From a virus (lineage: Duplodnaviria > Heunggongvirae > Uroviricota > Caudoviricetes), in the IMG/VR virus record IMGVR_UViG_3300013942_000056, positions 1 to 14,446 of that record: a stretch of DNA of 14,446 nt. The stretch is one strand, 5' to 3'. Shown in pieces: positions 1 through 14,446 of the stretch. Positions within the stretch are counted from its first letter, which is position 1. Each line of letters opens with the position of its first letter. Position numbers and translations under genes: made by a program. The notes beneath the pieces were generated by a model. That model saw nothing but the letters and a program-made list of their open reading frames with translations, searched no databases and was not told the DNA's origin.

Positions 1-706
1 CATCTCGGGAGATATCCCACTGTTGCAGGCCGGATTCAAACCATTCCTGCATTTTGTTCGCCACCTGCTCCTGCAACGCGCCGCTGCGGGTCCATGCCTG
101 CAACATTTCGCTGAAAGAAGGCAGATCAAAGAAGAAGTGTTCGGAATCACGCATTACCGGGGTAGCGCCAGAAACCACCGATTTCGGCTCGATCAATTCA
201 GTCGGGCTATATGTTGCGCCGCAGACTTCACAGTTATCGCCGTATTGATCTGGCGCTTTACATTTCGGGCAGGTGCCTTTTACAAAACGATCCGGCAGGA
301 ACATGCCTTTTTCCGGGTCGTACAACTGAGAGATAGTGCGGTTTTTAATAAAACCGTTCTCTTTCAGGCGAGTATAGATAAGCTCAGACAACTGACGGTT
401 CTCTTCGCTGTGCGTCGAGTGATAGTTGTCATAGCTGATGTTAAAGCCTGCGAAATCAGTCTGGTGTTCCTGACTCATTTCGCCAATCATCTGCTCCGGT
501 GTGATACCAAGCTGCTGTGCTTTCAGCATGATCGGCGTACCGTGGGCATCGTCGGCACAGATGAAATTAACCTCGTGGCCGCGCATTCGCTGGTAACGAA
601 CCCAGACATCAGCCTGGATGTGCTCCAGCATATGGCCGAGGTGGATTGAGCCGTTAGCGTACGGCAGCGCGCACGTCACCAGAATTTTCTTCGCGACTTG
701 GGTCAT
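1..706 (-). CDS. metG: Methionyl-tRNA synthetase, N-terminal part (3' end lies beyond window start)
   Basis: Reverse complement from 706 reads ATG ACC CAA GTC GCG AAG AAA ATT CTG GTG ACG TGC GCG CTG CCG TAC GCT AAC GGC TCA ATC CAC CTC GGC CAT = [25 protein letters not shown], the known MetRS N-terminus with the class I HIGH-type motif. The plus-strand ORFs 23..649 and 54..248 are antisense shadows of this gene. Confidence 0.95.
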
Positions 707-863
707 AGTAGGCATTACTTCTTTGTAGTGAAAAGGGGCTTGATAGTAACAAAATGGCCTTATGTCTGCCATGTGATAACAGCATTTCTCATAAATGATT
801 AAATGTCGTAGCTGGAGTACACTACAAGGCGACAATTGCGCAAATTAAAATAAAGGAGACGGG

Positions 864-1964
864 ATGAGCGAGTCCAAATCGCCGGATGCCCTGAGAGCAA
901 TGGTAGCCGGTACGCTGGCTAATTTTCAGCACCCAACCCTGAAACACAACCTGACTACGCTTAAAGCGTTACACCATGTTGCGTTGATGGATGACACACT
1001 GCATGTCGAACTAATCATGCCTTTCGTGTGGAATAAGCCTTTTGAAGACCTGAAAGAGCAATGTAGTGGTGATCTGCTCCGTATCACTGGAGCAAAGGCT
1101 ATTGACTGGAAGCTGTCGTACAACATTGCCACGCTTAAGCGCGTCAAAAACCAACCAGGCATTAATGGCGTTAAGAACATTATCGCCGTCAGCTCAGGCA
1201 AGGGCGGCGTGGGTAAATCCTCCACGGCGGTAAACCTGGCACTGGCGTTGGCTGCTGAAGGTGCGAAAGTTGGTATTTTGGATGCCGATATCTATGGTCC
1301 ATCAATTCCAAACATGCTGGGCGCGGAAAACCAACGTCCAACCTCACCTGACGGTACTCACATGGCACCTATCATGTCTCATGGCCTGGCAACCAACTCT
1401 ATTGGTTATCTGGTCACCGACGACAATGCAATGGTGTGGCGTGGACCGATGGCCAGCAAGGCGCTGATGCAGATGTTGCAGGAAACTCTATGGCCTGATC
1501 TGGACTATCTCGTTCTCGATATGCCGCCGGGCACTGGTGATATTCAGTTGACGCTGGCGCAGAACATTCCTGTAACTGGTGCGGTTGTGGTAACTACGCC
1601 GCAAGACATCGCGCTGATCGATGCGAAGAAAGGCATTGTGATGTTCGAAAAAGTCGAAGTGCCGGTACTGGGTATCGTCGAAAACATGAGTGTGCATATT
1701 TGCAGTAACTGCGGTCATCACGAGCCAATTTTTGGCACCGGTGGCGCACAGAAACTGGCCGAGAAATACAACACGCAGTTGTTAGGCCAAATGCCACTTC
1801 ATATCTCTCTTCGTGAAGATCTGGATAACGGAACACCAACCGTTATTAGTCGTCCAGATAGCGAATTTACGGCTATTTATCGTGACCTCGCAGATCGCGT
1901 TGCTGCCCAAATGTATTGGCAAGGTGAAGTAATACCTGGCGAAATCGCATTCCGCGCAGTGTGA
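864..1964 (+). CDS. apbC: Iron-sulfur cluster carrier ATPase Mrp/ApbC
   Basis: 366-aa ORF with AGGAG 7 nt upstream of ATG; Walker A GKGGVGKS; Mrp/NBP35-type CxxC (CSNCGHH); near-identity over long stretches to E. coli Mrp as recalled; divergent from metG as in E. coli. Confidence 0.93.
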   Translation: MSESKSPDALRAMVAGTLANFQHPTLKHNLTTLKALHHVALMDDTLHVELIMPFVWNKPFEDLKEQCSGDLLRITGAKAIDWKLSYNIATLKRVKNQPGINGVKNIIAVSSGKGGVGKSSTAVNLALALAAEGAKVGILDADIYGPSIPNMLGAENQRPTSPDGTHMAPIMSHGLATNSIGYLVTDDNAMVWRGPMASKALMQMLQETLWPDLDYLVLDMPPGTGDIQLTLAQNIPVTGAVVVTTPQDIALIDAKKGIVMFEKVEVPVLGIVENMSVHICSNCGHHEPIFGTGGAQKLAEKYNTQLLGQMPLHISLREDLDNGTPTVISRPDSEFTAIYRDLADRVAAQMYWQGEVIPGEIAFRAV

Positions 1965-2391: not shown

Positions 2392-2407
2392 AATACTCGC
2401 CTCTTAA

Positions 2408-2452
2408 TACTGTATATACATACAGTATATGTTGAAGCTATATATTTTTGAA
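2408..2452 (-). promoter_or_regulatory. LexA (SOS) box overlapping a sigma70-like promoter of the UmuD'-like gene
   Basis: TACTGTATATACATACAGTA at 2408-2427 (CTGT-N8-ACAG palindrome, one centre mismatch to the consensus as recalled). Minus-strand reading gives -35 TTCAAA (plus 2447-2452), 17-nt spacer, -10 TATACT (plus 2424-2429) overlapping the box. Confidence 0.8.
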
Positions 2453-2722
2453 CTCTATCTCTTAAAAAAGATGTTAATAAGATGCTAACTATTGAAAGGC
2501 ATAAATATATACAATTCCAACAAACGTTATTTTTAACAAATTTTTTCTCTCTGTTGACTTTTGCGAAAGCCTTGTCTGGCCTAAATTGCGCGGAAGCTAC
2601 TTTTTCCTTCCTGAGTTATCCACAGAGTTATGCACTTGCATGCATAACCTATACACACTATCTTAATTCGCAAGACACTGATGTTGCGGTATTGAAGGTT
2701 CATTGGGTTAAAAATAGACATT

Positions 2723-2753
2723 AAAAAGCCCAGTTGACTAGGCTGGGCTTTTT
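2723..2753. terminator. Bidirectional intrinsic terminator-like hairpin
   Basis: AAAAAGCCCAG (2723-2733), 9-nt loop, CTGGGCTTTTT (2743-2753); perfect 11-bp complementarity with A/T runs on both sides. Confidence 0.55.
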
Positions 2754-3053
2754 AAAAGGAAACAGAGTTTGCGGCTCTGTTCCTGAGCCATAAGTATCTG
2801 GCGACTGAATTAAGATTAACCGAATGTACTGGATTCATCAAGAAACGTTGAGTGGTCATACCAGGTAATAATGACCATTTACTAAACATCGTTGTTCTCA
2901 AAGAAGATTTAAGTCCAGGTTTTTGGTGACTCTAAAACCTTACCTTAACTCGAAATCGTGCCGTAAGTATCTGGCGACTACAGATATTGCAACTGCAAAG
3001 GCAAGCCCAAAGGTATTTGCAGCTAGGCGCGATAAAACTAAGTGAGGCCTGTT

Positions 3054-3137
3054 ATGGTTAACTTACTGTTCAAAATCGTGCCGCCGATGTTCGCGATTAT
3101 CAAAGCGATCATTGAGTACGTAAACCAGCGTCCATAA
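3054..3137 (+). CDS. Putative 27-aa hydrophobic peptide MVNLLFKIVPPMFAIIKAIIEYVNQRP
   Basis: ATG preceded by GAGG at 6-nt spacing; stop TAA at 3135-3137; strong hairpin terminator 14 nt downstream; below the ORF-track size cutoff. No homolog recognised. Confidence 0.3.
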   Translation: MVNLLFKIVPPMFAIIKAIIEYVNQRP

Positions 3138-3150
3138 CGCTAGTTGCTAC

Positions 3151-3175
3151 AGGCCCCATCAAGAGCATGGGGCCT
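3151..3175 (+). terminator. Intrinsic terminator hairpin after the small ORF
   Basis: AGGCCCCAT (3151-3159), loop CAAGAGC, ATGGGGCCT (3167-3175), then CTTTAT on the plus strand. Confidence 0.6.
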
Positions 3176-3192
3176 CTTTATCGTACTATTGC

Positions 3193-5034: not shown

Positions 5035-5561
5035 CGTGCTGCCCCCTCTTTGGTGAAAATGCCTGCTGCAATGCTGTTTATGATGCTGTCAGTGCATGGA
5101 GTAGAAAGCTGGGCATCTCCAGCAATTTTCATGACCTCAACATCCGCATATCGAATACCGAGGTGTATCAGACCGGCTATACCTGACTTAAGTCGAACAT
5201 TTTCCATAAACAGATCTTTTTCCCGCTGTTTAGCGGCTTCCAACTCCATCGACAATTTTTCCAACTGCTCTTTATGCTTCTTGTATTCCTGATACGCGTG
5301 CCAAGACTGACCTTTGCGCACACTATCAGCGATATCAGCAACCTGCTCTGGTGTTAGCGTGGTCAGTGGCTGTGATGGAAAAATCATCACTTGCCCGGCA
5401 TCCCAATCAAAACCCGCCTGAATTGACTGAACCTCAACTGATGGTGTTGAACCGATGCGACCAGGCGAATGAACAACGATCGTTACATCCATATCGCGAC
5501 GATGGCTGTGGTTGTTGGACAAAATACGATTCACCAACTCAGAAAATTTGGATAATTTCAT
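5031..5561 (-). CDS. Hypothetical phage protein (176 aa; start at MKLSKF)
   Basis: The internal ATG at 5561 gives an ATGA overlap with the stop of the upstream gene and has GGAGAGAAAGAGAGA upstream; the longer ORF-track extension to 5690 would overlap the upstream gene by 130 nt. Confidence 0.55.
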
Positions 5562-5881
5562 GCTGATCTCTCTTTCTCTCCCCGGATAATTCTGTTGCAC
5601 ACATCCACACACTCGTCGCAGATGAAAACGGCGTCCCCAGCAATTAACTTTTTGACGGCGTACTGGGATTTGTTGCAGAAGCTGCAACAAAGTGTTCGCC
5701 TGACTGATAAGGATGGAGCGCCAGATGTCAGCCGCTCCATATCGTTCTTGCGACGCAATATCACACGGCTGAACTCAACCAGTTTCTCCGGGGATATCTC
5801 CTCCTCCGTAGCGAGCGTCTCTAGTCGTTCGAGTATGTTGAAGGCTTTTTCTTGGGTAATAGCAGAGTGCGATGTGGTCAT
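5558..5881 (-). CDS. Phage protein with C-terminal ClpX-type C4 zinc-finger domain (107 aa)
   Basis: C-terminal [34 protein letters not shown] closely matches the ClpX N-terminal zinc-binding domain (E. coli ClpX has [34 protein letters not shown] as recalled). Confidence 0.7.
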
Positions 5882-6776: not shown

Positions 6777-7318
6777 TACGATGCCTCTAACTTATCTAAC
6801 TCTTTCAGCCCTTCACGTACCGCGTTCACAATGCGTTCCAGATACTGGTATTTCGGGTTTGGTACCGTTGGCCAGTCGGCATACCACGGATCATCACCAA
6901 AGAGATTCAGCAGTTTGTTACCGACGCCGAAACAACAGCAGCTTTCTTTTACGTCATCGGTGTTTTCCGCCTCGTCCCACATTTCACGAGCCAGTACGGC
7001 GTCGATTTCTCTCTCTCTTCGTAACTTTATGATTTCTGACTTCACGAAAAGCAGATTTGCATCGTTGTCATCGTCGACCGTGCTTCGCAGTTGAGAGTCG
7101 AAATAGCCGATTAGATACTCGTTGCTGACCCGCTTAATGAACGTCTGCACATCATCACCGCCCATAGCAAACCAAGCCGCAGTCCACGCTTTTCCGTAGC
7201 AGATGATGGTGATTCTTCCCTTACCAGGTTCGTAGTTTTCAATCATCACTCGAACCGGATCGAGGCGTTCCAGATCCGTCAGCACAAAGGAAAGAACATC
7301 TATTTTTTCGACCTTCAT
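6776..7318 (-). CDS. Hypothetical phage protein (180 aa; start at MKVEKI)
   Basis: The ORF-track start at 7330 is GTG; the ATG at 7318 forms an ATGA overlap with the stop of the HD-domain gene, so it is the preferred start. Confidence 0.55.
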   Translation of the reverse strand: MKVEKIDVLSFVLTDLERLDPVRVMIENYEPGKGRITIICYGKAWTAAWFAMGGDDVQTFIKRVSNEYLIGYFDSQLRSTVDDDNDANLLFVKSEIIKLRREREIDAVLAREMWDEAENTDDVKESCCCFGVGNKLLNLFGDDPWYADWPTVPNPKYQYLERIVNAVREGLKELDKLEAS

Positions 7319-7956
7319 GCAGCCTCCCACGCGCTCCAGATCAGCGATTTGTGTTTTTCATAACGTTTGATGTGTACCGGTTTCAGAAGCGCAATACCTT
7401 CAGTGACTTTCGCCATTGCGCTTAATAGCAACGGGTGTTCTATACCTATCCTCTCCATGTACTCGACAACATCAGCGTTGGCACCAATCTCTTTGCCGTG
7501 AAAGAGTACGTCCAGCATCAGTTCTTTCTCTGCGAGGTAGACAGCTGAAAACTCGGGATCGCGACTCACGATAGAAGAGGTATTGTCGAGCAGGTCAGCC
7601 AGCTTGATCATGCGCGTCTGCATGTCGAGATTTTGCTCCAGCTCCCGGACATTGATGATGAAACGCTGTATTCGATTGCCGTCTTCTGGCCTTGCAATGT
7701 TGGTCAGAGCCTGAACCATTTCAGCTACGCGCTCACCGAAGTGATCACGAACCATCTCTATGGTTACATGGGTGTCTTCGACCACATCATGCAGAAGCGC
7801 CGCGATTTGCATCTCCACGGTTCCGTCATGCAATGCAACAATCTCTCGGACAGCAACCGGGTGGTTGATGTAGTCTTCGCCGGTATATTTTCTTTTCTGA
7901 CCAACGCCACCATGAGCGCCAGCGGCGAACATATGAGCTTCGGAAATACTAGACAT
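7315..7956 (-). CDS. HD-domain (p)ppGpp hydrolase-like protein, SpoT/RelA hydrolase-type small alarmone hydrolase (213 aa)
   Basis: HPVAVREIV ... AALLHDVVEDT matches the His...HD...ED signature of the RelA/SpoT hydrolase domain; first gene after a terminator; ACGGAG RBS. Confidence 0.7.
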   Translation of the reverse strand: MSSISEAHMFAAGAHGGVGQKRKYTGEDYINHPVAVREIVALHDGTVEMQIAALLHDVVEDTHVTIEMVRDHFGERVAEMVQALTNIARPEDGNRIQRFIINVRELEQNLDMQTRMIKLADLLDNTSSIVSRDPEFSAVYLAEKELMLDVLFHGKEIGANADVVEYMERIGIEHPLLLSAMAKVTEGIALLKPVHIKRYEKHKSLIWSAWEAA

Positions 7957-9221: not shown

Positions 9222-10907
9222 TCATTTAACGCGTTTGAAAACGTATACGCTGACTGTGATCCCTGTGTCTTCAAACTCGTTGGTAAACGACTTCCCTCTG
9301 GCATAAACGTAATTATCCATCGTCATCCAGTCCAGTATTGGCGCAGTGCCCGGCAATACTGCTACAAGACGCCCGCCGACTTTCAGATGCCCCAGCGCAG
9401 CCAGCGTGTGCTCTCTATGACGACCAAGCGAGTACGGCGGGTTCATAACGATTTTGTCGAACTGATAACCTACGTTGTCCTCAGACCACTTTATGAAGTC
9501 GCAGCAAATCGTGTTCGTATACCCTTTTCCGCGCAGGATATCAGCGAAGAGAGGTGCGATTTCTATGCAGGTAACATCTTCCAGATCGGCGTTGATATAG
9601 GCCAGAAGATCCCCACGTCCGGCTTGAGGCTCCAGCAGCTTCTCACCAGACTTCAATTCAGTGGCTCTGGCAACGTACTCAGCAATCAAGCGTGGGGTAG
9701 GGTAGAACTGGTGTGATTTTGTATCCGGTATTAATCCGGTAGCCACAATCGTATTTAGCGTATGGCCGATCTCATACGGGAACTGCCAGTGCTTTTTCTC
9801 CTGCACGCCGCCAATGAAGCTCAGTGTGCGCTCAAGCTCTTCCACCTGCGACTTCTGGAGAGCTGAATCAGAGAAGTACCATACGCCTTTGTCTTTGCTT
9901 AATCGCCCGTCACGAAGCGCAGTGCGAACCGGCACGGAGATCGTCTTCTGGATTAACCCGAACTGCTTTGGTGCCCGTGTTTTTGGCGCGGTGCGACATG
10001 GCGCGGGGATTGCAGCAGGCATACTGTAAGCCAGCACCTCATTCAACTTCCAGGCCACGTCAGGATGTATTTCAAAGTGAACGTTGCCGTTCTTGAACAT
10101 CTTCACGCGCATTAGATTTCCATCGACGTTCATCCAGTCACCGGTCTGGCAGTCGTTTGCCCGATACGCAGCTGATAGCACCTCAGCAGTGCGGTTGATG
10201 GTAATAAATTCTTTGTGCGCGAAGAAATGAAGCAAGACACGCAGATCGTCGATATAGTCCTCTTTGCGATAGTTCACACTAACGCTGTCCCGCCAGAAAT
10301 CAGAAATGCAGTCAGCGATTATCAGACGTTCGCTGAAACCGTTTGTCTTATTTGTCTTGTGCGCAGGACTCAGCGCCTTAAACAAGCCATACACGCGCTC
10401 AGAGAGATATTTGTGCCTGTCATTCAGCAAATTAAGCATCGTGGGTATGACCGTTTCTGCTTTGAACTCCGGTACACCAACGAACTCTTTAACCTTCATC
10501 TGGTAGCCGGTTCTGTCAGTTTTGATGACTTCCTGTTTGCCCTCTATAAACTGCTCGCGCCACTCATCTCGACGGGAAGCTGGCATGATCAGCAAAACGT
10601 TAGTCATGTCCGTGACCTTCCTCCAGTACTCGGCCCAAATATTCTGTTTCACCCATTCCAGATCGACTTTATCCAACCAACCTCGATTTAAACGCGAGCG
10701 ATCTTCATCTGGTCGATGGTTTAGTCTCAGCAGGCGATTAATCATGTTGTGGCGTTCGTCGCCATAAACGAAGTCGTGTACCTGATACATGAAGGCGATC
10801 TCTTTCTCGCACTCGGCCACAATTTCGTGGATGACGTTCATTTCCTGCCGATAGTCGATAGCAGTGTTTGAGTTGGCATCGTCGATGATGGAAAGGGCTG
10901 TATTCAT
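9222..10907 (-). CDS. 561-aa protein: unknown ~400-aa N-terminal domain fused to a C-terminal gamma-type amino-methyltransferase domain (NPPY; probable N6-adenine DNA MTase)
   Basis: C-terminal region has the SAM-binding motif LEPQAGRGDLL followed about 50 aa later by KIVMNPPY, the order found in gamma-class N6-adenine MTases and HsdM; FYPTP precedes it. NPPY is also used by HemK/PrmC protein-glutamine MTases, so the target is inferred. Confidence 0.7.
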   Translation of the reverse strand: MNTALSIIDDANSNTAIDYRQEMNVIHEIVAECEKEIAFMYQVHDFVYGDERHNMINRLLRLNHRPDEDRSRLNRGWLDKVDLEWVKQNIWAEYWRKVTDMTNVLLIMPASRRDEWREQFIEGKQEVIKTDRTGYQMKVKEFVGVPEFKAETVIPTMLNLLNDRHKYLSERVYGLFKALSPAHKTNKTNGFSERLIIADCISDFWRDSVSVNYRKEDYIDDLRVLLHFFAHKEFITINRTAEVLSAAYRANDCQTGDWMNVDGNLMRVKMFKNGNVHFEIHPDVAWKLNEVLAYSMPAAIPAPCRTAPKTRAPKQFGLIQKTISVPVRTALRDGRLSKDKGVWYFSDSALQKSQVEELERTLSFIGGVQEKKHWQFPYEIGHTLNTIVATGLIPDTKSHQFYPTPRLIAEYVARATELKSGEKLLEPQAGRGDLLAYINADLEDVTCIEIAPLFADILRGKGYTNTICCDFIKWSEDNVGYQFDKIVMNPPYSLGRHREHTLAALGHLKVGGRLVAVLPGTAPILDWMTMDNYVYARGKSFTNEFEDTGITVSVYVFKRVK

Positions 10908-10947
10908 AATTGCACCATTAAGAAGTGATTTGTTTAATGGTGCAATT
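10908..10947 (-). promoter_or_regulatory. Perfect 14-bp inverted repeat over the MTase translation initiation region
   Basis: AATTGCACCATTAA (10908-10921), 12-nt spacer, TTAATGGTGCAATT (10934-10947); the left arm directly abuts the ATG at 10907, so the RBS lies inside the stem or operator. Confidence 0.55.
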
Positions 10948-11010
10948 ATTTCAAAAATGAAAAGGTACTAAATAGAAATAAACAGGCAATCCTTCAAATA
11001 AAGGCATTGG

Positions 11011-11625
11011 CTAATCATACTTGGAGGTATTTATCACCAGAATTTTGTTTGTATAAATCTTCTTAATATCCCATGTGACATTACCGGAATACCATTGACC
11101 GTTATATACTTGGTTTCCAGTTGCACCTGTCATTGTTACATAGACAGGTCTGTCGTAATCGGTTCGTCTATAGTTATATACCCCAACCATAGCAGGCATT
11201 ACCGCACATGGATACCCCATATCTATTGTAAATTGAGGGTCAGAAATAGTGATAAGTTTCGCATCAAGGGGCATCATCTCACCGTGATACACCATTGCGC
11301 CTGCGCTGTTATACATGGCAATGCCATAGCCAGAATGTGATAACACCATATCAGAAAAAGCATAAACTGTTATTGTTCCGGGGCTACCATTTACCTGATG
11401 CAATCTGAGAGCATTGTATCCGTTACTATGCTCATGAATAAACATCATGTTCGCCTTATTACTGCTTTTTATGAAGAAAAAGCATGATTTGTTTGATGGG
11501 ATTGATGTTTGAAAAACAGAACCTTTAGATGTAGACATTGTCCCTTTATTAATCAGATTTTGCGGAGTAAATTCTGGACTCATCCACAAACTTCCATCTG
11601 ATTGAGTAATTGACATCCCGAACAT
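11011..11625 (-). CDS. Hypothetical Tyr/Asn/Gly/Thr-rich protein (204 aa), AT-rich moron
   Basis: The ORF-track start at 11682 is TTG; the ATG at 11625 has GGGGA 6 nt upstream and lies 2 nt after the stop of the upstream 93-aa ORF; the region is visibly AT-rich relative to the flanks. Confidence 0.45.
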   Translation of the reverse strand: MFGMSITQSDGSLWMSPEFTPQNLINKGTMSTSKGSVFQTSIPSNKSCFFFIKSSNKANMMFIHEHSNGYNALRLHQVNGSPGTITVYAFSDMVLSHSGYGIAMYNSAGAMVYHGEMMPLDAKLITISDPQFTIDMGYPCAVMPAMVGVYNYRRTDYDRPVYVTMTGATGNQVYNGQWYSGNVTWDIKKIYTNKILVINTSKYD

Positions 11626-11627
11626 AA

Positions 11628-11909
11628 TTATCCCCAGTATGTGTATATGTAAGAACCAAGCCCCGTATATAAATTTGACCAACTAACCGTATTTCCATTA
11701 ATAGTAACTGTTGGAACAGGTAAATTAATGTAGTTGTCGTTGTTAAGAGGCATCAATGACCACACGGCATGTAGCGATTTACCCGGTGGCGGATTGGAGT
11801 ACGTCTTAGAGCCTGATGACGCAGTAAATCGATCAAGAAAAAAAATAGGAGTAAGGAAGCCAGTAACGTTAATTCCTTTATTGTTGTAAATCCCTGTACC
11901 GTATGCCAT
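11628..11909 (-). CDS. Hypothetical Tyr/Asn/Gly-rich protein (93 aa), AT-rich moron; possibly the N-terminal part of a frameshifted gene
   Basis: ATG at 11909 with AAGGA upstream; composition similar to the following ORF, which is in a different frame. Confidence 0.4.
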   Translation of the reverse strand: MAYGTGIYNNKGINVTGFLTPIFFLDRFTASSGSKTYSNPPPGKSLHAVWSLMPLNNDNYINLPVPTVTINGNTVSWSNLYTGLGSYIYTYWG

Positions 11910-11936
11910 TTTTCATCCTTGTTTTTTATCAACACA

Positions 11937-11960
11937 ATATGGCCGATCATGCGGCCATAT
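11937..11960 (-). terminator. Hairpin (8-bp stem) after the 189-aa gene; possible attenuator or operator
   Basis: ATATGGCC (11937-11944), loop GATCATGC, GGCCATAT (11953-11960), 4 nt after the stop codon at 11965-11967; the downstream flank is not T-rich. Confidence 0.35.
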
Positions 11961-11964
11961 CAGA

Positions 11965-12534
11965 TCAATTAGAGCTTTGAAAGGCTTTGTGTGGCTGTGT
12001 TGCGAGGTTATGTCGATGGCTTAACTCACGCATCATGTCTTCAAGCCGACTCTTTGTGTCGTCGAGTTGGTCGGCCATTGCTCCCAAAAGCTGACGAACG
12101 GCCATCGGATCATCGCTGTTTAGTGATGGCATTTTATAACCCGCCTGAGAAGACATAAGATTGAACGCAGACATCAACATCGTTAGAGAGGATTTAAGCC
12201 CAGCAATTTCACGATCTTTGCTGGCAATAATCGCCTCACTCTTGTTAGTGTCATCAGTTCGTTGAGTCTCGCTCACCATATCCAAAGTCGCCTGCAACTT
12301 ATCAGCGCGCTCTTTTTCAGCAAGATAATGAACACCGAAATGATGTGCTAAAGCTACAACCTGAGTTGGCTCTTCAAAGGTGGACTCAAAATTAAGTGCT
12401 GTAACCACTCTCTCAAATATGGAAACGTCTTCTATTCCTCGAAGAATGGCTAACATTTTGACCAGTTCATTAGCATCCATTTCTTCGAATAAGGCGTTTT
12501 GTTCATCAGCTATCGCTTTGCATTTCTTGCACAT
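11965..12534 (-). CDS. Hypothetical protein (189 aa)
   Basis: ATG at 12534 preceded by AGGAAAAACAC and the AGAAAACAACTTGTTT leader motif; no family recognised. Confidence 0.6.
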   Translation of the reverse strand: MCKKCKAIADEQNALFEEMDANELVKMLAILRGIEDVSIFERVVTALNFESTFEEPTQVVALAHHFGVHYLAEKERADKLQATLDMVSETQRTDDTNKSEAIIASKDREIAGLKSSLTMLMSAFNLMSSQAGYKMPSLNSDDPMAVRQLLGAMADQLDDTKSRLEDMMRELSHRHNLATQPHKAFQSSN

Positions 12535-12552
12535 GTGTTTTTCCTAATGCTT

Positions 12553-12568
12553 AAACAAGTTGTTTTCT
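12553..12568 (-). promoter_or_regulatory. Leader motif AGAAAACAACTTGTTT (palindromic core AAACAA-C-TTGTTT), copy 1
   Basis: Lies 18 nt upstream of the ATG at 12534; near-identical copy at 13281-13297 and partial copies at 7967-7976 and 13808-13822. Confidence 0.45.
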
Positions 12569-12649
12569 TATTGGCTTTATTGTGATGTGGCATAAAAGGG
12601 GAGCAAGCTAAACGTAAAGGTGCAAACTCTCTATTTCGGTCAACGAAAC

Positions 12650-14052: not shown

Positions 14053-14099
14053 GTGGACTCCATCCAGTGTCAGAAAGAGTTGCCCCCCGTGGCATTCCA

Positions 14100-14160
14100 C
14101 ACGCCCCCCCGGCCCCCCCCTCCCCGTTGAGGAGGGCCCAGTGGAGGGGAGCCGCCCCCC
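14100..14160. other. Poly-C/G low-complexity junction (probable chimeric assembly or sequencing artifact)
   Basis: CCCCCCC, CCCCCCCC and CCCCCC runs within 60 bp, coinciding with the end of the fmt homology and a clear rise in GC content to the right. Confidence 0.6.
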
Positions 14161-14446
14161 GGTATTTGGGCAGCAGGGACGAATGAACGTTGATGGAGCC
14201 GTAAGGTGGGGTGTTCAGAATGTCCTCCGGCAGGATGCGGCCATAGGCCGCCACCACGATCAGCTCCGGATGCAGCTCCCGCACCAGGGCCAGGGCCGTG
14301 CCGTCCCGCATTTTCGTGGGCTGATACACGGACAGCCCCTGGGCCAGGGCGTATTCCTTCACCGGTGAAAAGGCCAGCTTATGCCCCCGGTTTTTGGGGC
14401 GGTCCGGCTGGGTGAACACGCCGCAGATCTCGTGCCCGTCCTCCAC
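14120..14446 (-). CDS. fmt: Methionyl-tRNA formyltransferase fragment (residues ~25-135 only), GC-rich, non-enterobacterial codon usage
   Basis: Minus-strand translation [24 protein letters not shown] ... VVAAYGRILPEDIL ... INVHSSLLPKYRGAAPLHWALLNGE aligns with the Fmt N-terminal domain (E. coli [45 protein letters not shown]). Homology stops at the poly-G tract; the N-terminus lies beyond the window end. Confidence 0.75.

What the first reader, a model, noticed from the sequence alone, without database searches (positions are those of the whole stretch)
10948..11960. AT-rich moron encoding two Tyr/Asn/Gly/Thr-rich proteins in different frames
This ~1-kb stretch is clearly more AT-rich than the flanking DNA, indicating separate acquisition. 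It carries a 93-aa ORF followed 2 nt later, in another frame, by a 204-aa ORF of similar unusual composition (beta-rich, low charge). They may be two small secreted or surface proteins or a single frameshifted gene; no homolog was recognised. Cargo of this kind in a prophage early region often encodes exclusion or host-interaction functions.
Basis: partly seen in the sequence, partly recalled or inferred. Interest (0 to 1): 0.45.

Follow-up and report, generated by a model that had tools for sequence, protein, structure and literature searches.

The report
Displaced phage receptor-binding gene pair
The AT-rich 1-kb insert in this E. coli phage-plasmid carries two intact, co-evolving genes that in T1-like and other phages sit next to the central tail-fibre gene and most likely form the receptor-binding tip of the virion, so it is a horizontally swapped host-range module parked far from the tail genes, not a lysogenic-conversion 'moron' or a broken gene.

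Summary
On the minus strand, a 93-aa ORF (11628-11909) is followed 2 nt later, in another frame, by a 204-aa ORF (11011-11625). The segment is 38% GC against 47-50% in the flanks.

The window comes from an SSU5-like E. coli phage-plasmid. Related plasmids have an empty site here, so the ~1-kb segment is an insertion.

Both ORFs are real genes under strong purifying selection. They belong to PHROG 557 and PHROG 425. The same pair lies beside the J-like central tail-fibre gene in T1-like, Nonagvirus and other siphoviruses, and beside a J-tip-like tail gene in Stx podophages. Distant relatives carry it as one fused ~315-aa protein.

In BASEL phages this is the predicted receptor-binding-protein locus. 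The window allele is 39-43% identical to alleles from BtuB-dependent phages.

Neither protein has a signal peptide or lipobox. Both are transcribed at background level in an LF82 lysogen.

Across SSU5-like plasmids, the C-terminal tip of J tracks which RBP family is present. Plasmids with this distal pair lack the pair that others keep in the tail module.

Best reading: a displaced, two-subunit tail-tip receptor-binding module. It is a new member of a known kind and of moderate interest.

The parts
11628..11909 (-). ORF1, 93 aa: the small subunit. It corresponds to the N-terminal domain of the fused homologues and is the likely base/adaptor part of the tail-tip receptor-binding module (PHROG 557).
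   Evidence: phrog_557 E=4.7e-29. Identity is 76% to JenP1 gp22, 66% to Stx/Sp5 ORF72 and 49% to Bas04_0024. pN 0.15 against pS 0.81 versus JenP1. AF2 pLDDT 83. No signal peptide. Fused homologues such as P0080 carry phrog_557 at residues 1-80.
11011..11625 (-). ORF2, 204 aa: the large subunit, with two beta-sandwich domains. It is the likely receptor-contacting part (PHROG 425). It is closest to alleles from BtuB-dependent siphoviruses.
   Evidence: phrog_425 E=5.8e-72 and phrog_1265 (=DUF6453, the LptD RBP family) E=1.1e-5. Identity is 82% to JenP1 gp21, 62% to Stx ORF73, 38.5% to Bas04_0023 and 42.9% to Bas06_0024, all full length, but only 23% over 129 aa to the Bas05 (FhuA) allele. dN/dS is about 0.06 versus JenP1. 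AF2 pLDDT 80.7. hhalign against DUF6453: probability 84%, E=7e-6 over 48 columns.
11623..11636 (-). Coupling junction TGG GGA TAA TT ATG. The last two codons of ORF1 (Trp-Gly) supply a GGGGA Shine-Dalgarno-like element 5 nt before the ORF2 start codon.
   Evidence: Read from the sequence. The same TGGGG(A/G)-stop-2 to 5 nt-ATG arrangement is found in JenP1, the Stx phage, Bas04 and SECphi27. The ORF2 frame is open for only 11-27 codons upstream, the length varies, and there is no conserved slippery heptamer.
11916..11920 (-). AAGGA Shine-Dalgarno-like element 6 nt upstream of the ORF1 ATG.
   Evidence: Read from the sequence.
11937..11960 (-). Hairpin with a core 9-bp G+C-rich stem (11 consecutive pairs in the fold), lying between the stop of the upstream phrog_5508 gene (11965) and ORF1. 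It marks the right edge of the inserted segment. It could be a weak terminator or an RNA-stability element.
   Evidence: strand folding dG -17.5 kcal/mol, z = -3.8, 0 of 200 shuffles as good. This sequence is absent from the empty-site plasmid.
10969..11964 (.). Approximate extent of the horizontally acquired segment: the two ORFs plus short non-homologous spacers.
   Evidence: Alignment with the empty site in pR7-S2K78-1 holds up to about 10968 on the left and resumes at the phrog_5508 gene on the right. Nucleotide homology to Nonagvirus JenP1 covers 11011-11915 only. GC is 38.8% against 47.6% for the rest of the window.

Best explanation
ORF1 and ORF2 are the two polypeptides of one tail-tip receptor-binding module of this SSU5-like siphovirus phage-plasmid.

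They are probably made together during lytic growth. ORF2 is probably translated by coupling to ORF1 through the WG-stop/GGGGA/ATG junction. They would assemble into a three-domain beta-sandwich complex equivalent to the single-chain ~315-aa homologues of other phages.

[quoted passage not shown] There it would bind the terminal outer-membrane receptor that triggers irreversible adsorption. By similarity to alleles of BtuB-dependent phages, the most likely receptor is BtuB.

The cassette was acquired horizontally from the pool of RBP modules shared by T1-like, Nonagvirus and Stx phages; its closest relative is Nonagvirus JenP1. It inserted about 60 kb from the tail genes. It functionally replaces the divergent pair that sister phage-plasmids keep in the tail module.

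Shown here: homology, synteny in other phages, purifying selection, the insertion, absence of secretion signals, J-tip/RBP-family co-variation, and near mutual exclusivity of the two alleles.

Inferred: presence in the virion, docking on J, heterodimer formation, translational coupling, late expression and receptor identity.
For: 1. Family and locus.
- ORF1 is phrog_557 and ORF2 is phrog_425.
- The same pair lies directly beside the J-like gene in JenP1, SECphi27, Bas04, Bas06 and Bas05 and Koroua. In Vid5 it is one fused gene.
- The Stx phage ORF71 has a J-tip-like C-terminus, and the pair follows it directly.
- Published BASEL work and a 2026 preprint identify this locus as the one encoding receptor specificity (PMC8594841; 10.64898/2026.04.02.716166).
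- In Bas04 and Bas06, both BtuB-dependent, the locus holds only a Cor-like lipoprotein plus this pair.

2. One functional unit.
- Of 114 cluster representatives in the exhaustive profile search, 10 proteins of ~309-325 aa match the ORF2 profile only from about residue 95-115 onward. Of the four of these scanned against PHROGs, three carry both phrog_557 and phrog_425.
- The stop/SD/ATG junction is conserved and pN is far below pS in both ORFs.

3. J-tip co-variation within the SSU5-like backbone.
- Plasmids with the pair have a J ending …VYDDNNVLRVRIGRL. This holds for Cyrano, pEcFELIX526.1, the Salmonella Tennessee plasmid, and pRHB36-C16_2, which is 100% identical to window 10300-12600.
- This tip resembles those of JenP1, Bas04 and Vid5. 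Its last 24 residues are 62.5% identical to those of Stx ORF71.
- An SSU5-like plasmid with a DUF6453 (LptD-type) RBP has a Bas18-like tip, …GGGRVVVGKWT.
- A Klebsiella SSU5-like plasmid without any pair has a 4056-aa J. Its homology to Cyrano J stops at residue 1543, before the tip.

4. Replacement of the tail-module allele.
- Sister plasmids carry a divergent pair (84 + 188 aa; phrog_557 and phrog_425), with or without a Cor-like gene, inside the tail module, and have an empty distal site.
- Plasmids with the distal pair have no pair in the tail module.
- In PLSDB, 246 records give 257 matching places. At most 11 records can therefore hold both alleles.

5. Not a host-surface or lysogeny function.
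- Neither protein has a signal peptide or lipobox.
- In the LF82 lysogen, CYRAN_88/89 are at background, like the tail genes (7.6 and 11.4 against J 12.5, normalised reads), and are not among the 13 Cyrano morons.

6. Receptor guess.
- Identity to the BtuB-type alleles is 38.5-42.9% over full length, against 23% over 129 aa to the FhuA-type allele.

7. Weak link to a solved RBP.
- ORF2 hits phrog_1265 (= DUF6453 = Bas18 LptD-binding RBP, PDB 9rpt) at 1.1e-5. Profile-profile comparison gives 84% probability over 48 columns.
Against: - No experiment I found shows that PHROG 425/557 proteins are in virions or bind a receptor. The BASEL and preprint assignments are comparative and based on AlphaFold3 models.
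- In Stx phage Sp5, in-frame deletions of the homologues ORF72 and ORF73 did not abolish plaque formation or lysogenisation on K-12 (PMC5155283). The pair is therefore not universally essential.
- In this plasmid lineage the pair sits among early/accessory genes (methyltransferase, TerB-like, RNase H). It is about 60 kb from J and has no adjacent Cor-like gene.
- In the LF82 RNA-seq data the ORF1 homologue stays low while the ORF2 homologue rises with late genes. That is odd for a coupled bicistron.
- Foldseek found no significant solved-structure match for either model.
- The C-terminal ~60 residues of ORF2 differ from the BtuB-type alleles, so the receptor may be different.
- The J-tip co-variation rests on about a dozen genomes.
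Confidence: 0.62

Rival explanations
1. Accessory or vestigial adhesin. The pair is a real, expressed tail-associated module but not the primary receptor-binding device of this phage. J itself or the P1-S-like lateral fibre determines infection, and the pair only widens host range or is on its way to loss.
For: The Sp5 homologues ORF72/73 are dispensable on K-12. Salmonella phage SSU5 is reported to use LPS core through its tail fibre gp22 (cited in PMC12312913). The pair is far from the tail operon in this lineage.
Against: Purifying selection is strong in both genes. The distal allele and the tail-module allele are nearly mutually exclusive, which suggests one copy is needed. J in these plasmids ends in the short docking-type tip rather than in a covalent receptor-binding domain, unlike the Klebsiella relative.
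Confidence: 0.17
2. Moron or exclusion cargo. The proteins act in the lysogen, for example by interfering with incoming phages or host surfaces.
For: The segment is an AT-rich insertion among accessory genes. PHROGs files phrog_425 under 'moron, auxiliary metabolic gene and host takeover'. In Stx phages the pair lies next to lom, and it is non-essential there.
Against: Neither protein has a signal peptide, lipobox or TM segment. Transcription in the LF82 lysogen is at background and the genes are absent from the moron list. No promoter-like site lies upstream. The family is common in strictly virulent phages, where it is adjacent to J. In those loci the exclusion role is filled by a separate Cor-like lipoprotein.
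Confidence: 0.07
3. Assembly factor. One or both proteins are chaperones or caps for the central or lateral fibre and are not part of the mature virion.
For: Small genes next to fibre genes are often chaperones. The 2026 preprint calls the proteins next to the RBP 'accessory'. The ORF1 and ORF2 homologues show different RNA levels in LF82.
Against: ORF1 is fused to the N-terminus of ORF2-like proteins in several lineages, which is atypical for chaperones. In Bas04 and Bas06 nothing else in the locus could be the BtuB-binding protein.
Confidence: 0.1
4. A single gene broken by a frameshift (pseudogene), or one read through by programmed -1 frameshifting.
For: Fused single-chain homologues exist. 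ORF2 is in the -1 frame relative to ORF1 in every lineage, and its frame is open for 19 codons upstream of the ATG in the window.
Against: The split is conserved across SSU5-like, Nonagvirus, Drexlerviridae and Stx phages, although synonymous sites are saturated. ORF2 always has its own ATG preceded by a GGGG(A/G) element. The upstream open stretch varies from 11 to 27 codons and has no shared slippery heptamer. None of the 23 + 17 close database relatives is fused.
Confidence: 0.03

Closest known systems
The 'bona fide RBP locus' downstream of gpJ in small siphoviruses, BtuB-type allele (BASEL phages FritzSarasin/Bas04 and KarlJaspers/Bas06; Maffei et al. 2021; 2026 receptor-prediction preprint)
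   Same: It has the same two protein families (phrog_557 + phrog_425), the same sizes (91-93 + 204 aa) and the same stop-SD-ATG junction. ORF2 identity is 38.5-42.9% over full length. The J C-terminal tip is of the same type.
   Different: Here the pair is not beside gpJ but about 60 kb away, in an accessory-gene block of a temperate phage-plasmid. No Cor-like exclusion lipoprotein accompanies it. The C-terminal part of ORF2 is divergent, and the receptor is untested.
Nonagvirus JenP1 gp22/gp21 (also JenP2 and BRET)
   Same: These are the closest relatives outside phage-plasmids: 76% nucleotide identity, 76% (ORF1) and 82% (ORF2) protein identity, similarly AT-rich at 38% GC, with an identical 2-nt junction.
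   Different: JenP1 is a virulent phage, and its pair is convergent with J inside the tail region.
Stx phage Sp5 ORF72 (ECs1234) and ORF73 (ECs1235)
   Same: Protein identity is 66% and 62%. The pair follows a tail gene (ORF71) whose C-terminus resembles the J tip. It is the only member of the family tested genetically.
   Different: The virion is a podovirus. Deletions were not essential on K-12. The pair lies upstream of lom.
DUF6453 / PF20051 / phrog_1265 LptD-binding RBPs (Bas18 Oekolampad, RTP Rtp44; PDB 9rpt, 9rpw, 9rqi)
   Same: They occupy the same genomic niche beside gpJ and are predicted to be beta-sandwich proteins. Total length is ~315-320 aa, like the fused relatives. A local profile match covers ORF2 residues 78-126. 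They also occur in some SSU5-like phage-plasmids.
   Different: The window proteins have no Pfam DUF6453 hit, and there is no full-length homology. The DUF6453 proteins are single polypeptides and pair with a different J-tip sequence.
T5 pb5 with Llp, and T1/phi80 Cor (a separately encoded RBP plus a receptor-blocking lipoprotein)
   Same: The logic is the same: a separately encoded RBP docks on the central fibre tip, and the receptor module can be exchanged.
   Different: There is no sequence relationship to pb5. Llp and Cor are lipoproteins with signal peptides, whereas ORF1 and ORF2 have none.

Membership tests
J-tip RBP pair of T1-like and related phages (PHROG 557 + PHROG 425) | Sequence membership of both proteins | tested here: met
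   phrog_557 E=4.7e-29 and phrog_425 E=5.8e-72.
J-tip RBP pair of T1-like and related phages (PHROG 557 + PHROG 425) | Small gene immediately followed by the ~200-aa gene, with tight stop/start spacing | tested here: met
   TAA-TT-ATG in the window. The same layout occurs in JenP1, the Stx phage, Bas04 and SECphi27.
J-tip RBP pair of T1-like and related phages (PHROG 557 + PHROG 425) | Location directly next to the gpJ-like central tail fibre gene | tested here: not met
   In the window the pair is flanked by a DUF4942 methyltransferase gene and a phrog_5508 gene. In Cyrano, J is at 17.7-22.4 kb and the pair at 81.9-82.8 kb.
J-tip RBP pair of T1-like and related phages (PHROG 557 + PHROG 425) | The same genome encodes a J protein with the matching C-terminal tip | tested here: met
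   This cannot be tested in the window itself. It was tested in pRHB36-C16_2 (100% identical to window 10300-12600) and in Cyrano. Both J proteins end …VYDDNNVLRVRIGRL, like the J or ORF71 of other pair-bearing phages.
J-tip RBP pair of T1-like and related phages (PHROG 557 + PHROG 425) | Physical presence at the tail tip and binding of an outer-membrane receptor | not testable with these tools
   This needs virion proteomics, cryo-EM and adsorption assays. I found no published experiment for this family.
BtuB-specific RBP family (preprint criterion: >30% identity and >99% coverage to RBPs of BtuB-dependent Drexlerviridae and relatives) | Identity and coverage to alleles of phages shown to need BtuB | tested here: met
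   38.5% identity to Bas04_0023 and 42.9% to Bas06_0024 over 204-205 aligned residues. Both phages have BtuB as terminal receptor. Identity to the FhuA-type Bas05 allele is only 23% over 129 aa.
BtuB-specific RBP family (preprint criterion: >30% identity and >99% coverage to RBPs of BtuB-dependent Drexlerviridae and relatives) | Infection depends on btuB | not testable with these tools
   Requires plating on a btuB mutant.
DUF6453 (PF20051) LptD-binding RBPs | Pfam DUF6453 match or full-length homology | tested here: not met
   No Pfam hit at E<=1. BLASTP of the Bas18 RBP against a fused relative is non-significant. Only a 48-column profile match was found.
Moron (autonomously expressed lysogenic-conversion cassette) | Own promoter and terminator, and expression in the lysogen above prophage background | tested here: not met
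   No sigma-70-like site lies upstream of ORF1. CYRAN_88/89 read 7.6 and 11.4, at background like the tail genes, and are not among the genes 5-fold or more above background that the authors list as morons. This comes from one strain grown in LB.
Cor/Llp-type superinfection-exclusion lipoproteins | Signal peptide with lipobox | tested here: not met
   There is no lipobox and no K/R-plus-hydrophobic N-terminus in ORF1 or ORF2. Both features are present in Bas04_0025, Bas18_0026 and the Salmonella plasmid lipoprotein.
Programmed -1 frameshift gene pairs (gpG/gpGT type) | Conserved slippery heptamer within an overlap of the two frames | tested here: not met
   The upstream open stretch of the ORF2 frame varies from 11 to 27 codons, and the junction sequences share no slippery motif.

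The most novel reading that the evidence does not exclude
Because the cassette lies outside the late tail operon, on a multicopy phage-plasmid, it could act as a portable host-range cartridge. Its products might dock not only on the plasmid's own J protein but also on any co-resident phage whose central fibre ends in the same …RV(x)IGRL tip. One example is the ORF71 protein of Stx phages, whose last 24 residues are 62.5% identical to Cyrano J. That would re-target other prophages by phenotypic mixing. A weaker variant links the BtuB-type RBP to the cobT/cobS cobalamin genes that these phage-plasmids carry.
Probability: 0.06. Interest if true: 0.75.

Novelty: new member of a known kind. Interest (0 to 1): 0.4.

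Why it matters
SSU5-like phage-plasmids are common in E. coli; this cassette alone is in 150 of 5,426 complete genomes. They also spread resistance genes, yet what sets their host range is poorly known.

This analysis points to a small, exchangeable two-gene module as the probable terminal receptor-binding device. It shows that the module can sit far from the tail genes, where tail-focused annotation would miss it.

It also indicates that the PHROG labels 'outer membrane protein' (phrog_557) and 'membrane associated protein; moron' (phrog_425 and phrog_1265) are probably wrong. That label propagates into many phage annotations, including Stx phages.

The J-tip/RBP co-variation gives a simple sequence rule for predicting which RBP family a J protein accepts. 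That rule is useful for host-range prediction and for engineering phages.

Tried and rejected
- Pfam on both ORFs and on eight distant relatives gave no family.
- Foldseek of both AlphaFold2 models against the PDB gave nothing significant. The top hits were generic beta-sandwiches or tailspike and pyocin-fibre fragments at E>0.007.
- The BFVD search returned only uncharacterised phage proteins and one 'bulb-type lectin' label.
- A PDB sequence-profile search with the ORF2 family found no hit.
- hhalign of ORF1 against ORF2 showed only a 16-residue shared hairpin motif, YG.x.YN..G (probability 4%). I do not treat it as evidence of duplication.
- hhalign of the fused family against DUF6453 was non-significant.
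- Rfam found nothing in the window.
- Literature searches found no receptor data for SSU5-like E. coli phage-plasmids or for PhiR41_1.
- The FhuA-phage paper treats J itself as the RBP and does not test the small proteins.
- I considered and rejected a programmed frameshift, a secreted or outer-membrane protein, and a lysogeny-expressed moron, for the reasons given under the rival explanations.
Full report
**What is there**

The window's minus strand carries a 93-aa ORF (11628-11909) and a 204-aa ORF (11011-11625 from its ATG). The junction reads TGG GGA TAA TT ATG, so the second ORF starts 2 nt after the first stops and is in another frame.

The stretch 10948-11960 is 38.1% GC. The blocks of genes on either side are 47.5% and 46.0% GC. 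GC3 is 37% in both ORFs against 40-59% in the neighbours.

Both proteins are rich in N, G, T, S and Y and poor in charged residues. AlphaFold2 predicts both as essentially all-beta (ORF1 has two short helical turns), with pLDDT 83 and 81.

**Where the window comes from**

The region is 99-100% identical to ~107-115-kb E. coli plasmids and to phage Cyrano (pLF82) and 'CMS-2020a'. These are SSU5-like phage-plasmids. It occurs in 150 of 5,426 complete E. coli genomes, almost always on plasmids.

Sister plasmids such as pR7-S2K78-1 have the two flanking genes adjacent: the DUF4942 methyltransferase gene and a phrog_5508 gene. About 10969-11964 is therefore an inserted segment. Separate acquisition is supported.

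**The two ORFs are genes, and they form one unit**

ORF1 belongs to PHROG 557 (E=4.7e-29) and ORF2 to PHROG 425 (E=5.8e-72). Close database relatives are always ~93 aa and ~204 aa and are never fused.

Against Nonagvirus JenP1, pN/pS is 0.15/0.81 for ORF1 and 0.10/0.67 for ORF2. The pattern is the same against Stx phage and Bas04 copies.

The junction TGGGG(A/G)-stop-2 to 5 nt-ATG is conserved in all these lineages. The upstream open stretch of the ORF2 frame varies from 11 to 27 codons and contains no shared slippery site. This excludes a recent frameshift and makes programmed frameshifting unlikely. The conserved Trp-Gly-stop codons double as a Shine-Dalgarno-like element, which suggests translational coupling; that is an inference.

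An exhaustive profile search found 114 cluster representatives. Ten of them, ~309-325 aa long, match the ORF2 profile only from about residue 95-115 onward. Of the four scanned against PHROGs, three carry phrog_557 at the N-terminus and phrog_425 after it. Vid5 gp23 looks like such a fusion as well. The pair is therefore a split version of a single protein found elsewhere.

**What the family is**

In every other phage examined, the pair or the fusion lies beside the J-like central tail-fibre gene:
- convergent with J in JenP1, SECphi27, Bas04 and Bas06;
- co-oriented with J in Bas05, Koroua and Vid5;
- in Stx podophages, directly after ORF71, whose C-terminal ~285 residues resemble the J C-terminus.

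This is the locus that Maffei et al. 2021 (PMC8594841) and a 2026 preprint (10.64898/2026.04.02.716166) identify as encoding terminal-receptor specificity in small siphoviruses. They describe RBPs attached non-covalently to J, often next to Cor-like exclusion lipoproteins.

Bas04 and Bas06 depend on BtuB. Their locus contains only a Cor-like lipoprotein (phrog_1119) plus this pair. FhuA-dependent Bas05 has a divergent pair of the same two PHROGs plus Cor.

The window's ORF2 is 38.5% and 42.9% identical over full length to the Bas04 and Bas06 alleles. It is only 23% identical over 129 residues to the Bas05 allele. By the preprint's criterion it falls in the BtuB-associated family. Its C-terminal third is divergent, so the receptor call is tentative.

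The LptD-binding RBP of Bas18 is now solved (PDB 9rpt, 9rpw, 9rqi). It is DUF6453/phrog_1265. ORF2 hits that PHROG at 1.1e-5 and gives an 84%-probability profile match over 48 columns. This hints at distant kinship and is not membership.

**Evidence inside the SSU5-like family**

Four tail-tip configurations exist on this one backbone.
- (i) J of 1437 aa is followed immediately by a DUF6453 RBP, and J ends …GGGRVVVGKWT, like Bas18 J.
- (ii) J of 1575 aa, then a lateral fibre, then a divergent pair (84 + 188 aa; phrog_557 and phrog_425), with or without a Cor-like lipoprotein, before the lysis genes.
- (iii) The same J, 99% identical in its last 300 residues, and a lateral fibre, but no pair in the tail module. 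The 93 + 204-aa pair sits at the distal site instead. This is Cyrano and pRHB36-C16_2; the latter is 100% identical to window 10300-12600.
- (iv) In Klebsiella, a 4056-aa J whose similarity to Cyrano J stops at residue 1543, just before the tip, and no pair.

Pair-bearing genomes share the tip …V(Y/K)D..N..L(R)V.IGR(L/I). This includes Stx ORF71, which is 62.5% identical to Cyrano J over the last 24 residues.

In PLSDB, 246 plasmids give 257 matching places for ORF2-like sequences. At most 11 plasmids can therefore hold both alleles. A plasmid with the tail-module allele has the distal site empty.

Two patterns stand out: the J tip co-varies with the RBP family, and the two alleles are alternatives. 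They are the strongest arguments that the distal pair is this phage's tip RBP, acquired from outside and replacing the resident one. The cassette is 76% identical in nucleotide sequence to JenP1's and has the same 38% GC.

**Against the moron or surface-protein reading**

- Neither protein has a signal peptide, lipobox or TM segment. The Cor-like neighbours in other phages have textbook lipoprotein signals.
- In the LF82 lysogen, the homologues CYRAN_88/89 are at background (7.6 and 11.4 normalised reads; J is 12.5). They are not among the 13 Cyrano morons defined by transcription 5-fold or more above background (PMC9928086).
- No sigma-70-like promoter lies upstream of ORF1.
- The family is abundant in strictly virulent phages.

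**Caveats**

- No experiment yet shows these proteins in a virion or bound to a receptor.
- In Stx phage Sp5, in-frame deletions of ORF72 (92 aa) and ORF73 (205 aa) were not among the nine essential late genes (PMC5155283). The pair can be dispensable in at least one background.
- In the LF82 data the ORF1 homologue stays low while the ORF2 homologue rises with late genes. I cannot explain this.
- Fold searches gave no significant solved match.
- The co-variation rests on about a dozen genomes.

**Verdict**

It is wrong on function and localisation.

The best-supported explanation is a displaced, two-subunit tail-tip receptor-binding module of the known gpJ-associated RBP kind (confidence about 0.6). 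BtuB is the most likely receptor (about 0.4). This is a new member of a known kind in an unusual genomic position, and its interest is moderate.

Noticed in passing
window 14084-14446: Homology to SSU5-like phage-plasmids stops at 14083. The last 363 bp are 64% GC and encode, on the minus strand, a fragment of a methionyl-tRNA formyltransferase-like protein (Formyl_trans_N, E=1.7e-26). This looks like a chimeric assembly or a joined window end.
   Followed up: partly
window 10909-10949 (minus strand): A perfect 16-bp hairpin (dG -19.1 kcal/mol, z = -6.6) has a 3' arm that covers the ribosome-binding region and start codon of the DUF4942 methyltransferase gene. The empty-site plasmid keeps it, with a compensatory G>A / C>T pair. 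It may be a translational attenuator, a terminator or an operator.
   Followed up: partly
window 5558-5881 (minus strand): A 107-aa protein whose only recognisable domain is a ClpX-type C4 zinc finger (PF06689, E=1.2e-15). It could be a decoy or modulator of ClpX adaptor binding.
   Followed up: no
window 7315-7956 (minus strand): A 213-aa HD_4 (RelA/SpoT-type HD hydrolase) protein is encoded among Ea22/Eaa-like early genes. It may be a (p)ppGpp or other alarmone hydrolase.
   Followed up: no
window 1-1964: The 3' end of metG and a complete apbC (mrp), both host-type housekeeping genes, are carried on the phage-plasmid. Relatives such as pMTY18780-3 have a full methionine-tRNA ligase gene there.
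   Followed up: no
window 2392-3192: This is a second AT-rich stretch (39% GC) without a convincing ORF, between the S24-peptidase (UmuD-like) gene and the next gene block. Rfam finds nothing there.
   Followed up: no
L010 (Cyrano) 43137-46576: SSU5-like phage-plasmids encode CobT- and CobS-like cobalamin-salvage enzymes, while this lineage's predicted RBP is closest to alleles that target the cobalamin receptor BtuB. Cobalamin represses btuB, so a link to self-exclusion is conceivable. It is more likely a coincidence.
   Followed up: no
PHROG 557, 425 and 1265 (database labels): These PHROGs are labelled 'outer membrane protein' and 'membrane (associated) protein; moron'. Yet phrog_1265 is DUF6453, the LptD-binding RBP solved in PDB 9rpt, and phrog_557/425 occupy the same gpJ-adjacent RBP locus and lack signal peptides. 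The labels look like propagated mis-annotations.
   Followed up: partly
L003 (Stx phage Lyz12581Vzw) 6918-8186; Sp5 ORF71: The essential 422-aa tail protein of short-tailed Stx phages has a C-terminal region similar to the C-terminus of siphovirus J proteins, including the terminal …VRIGRL motif. It is followed by the RBP pair. A podovirus therefore seems to carry a siphovirus-type tip module.
   Followed up: partly
Cyrano CYRAN_88 versus CYRAN_89 (LF82 RNA-seq, PMC9928086 S1 Table): The two adjacent, co-oriented genes differ 4- to 10-fold in RNA level in most conditions: ORF1 homologue log2 2.7-3.9, ORF2 homologue 5.2-6.5. The cause could be an internal promoter or a mapping artefact. It is unexplained.
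   Followed up: no
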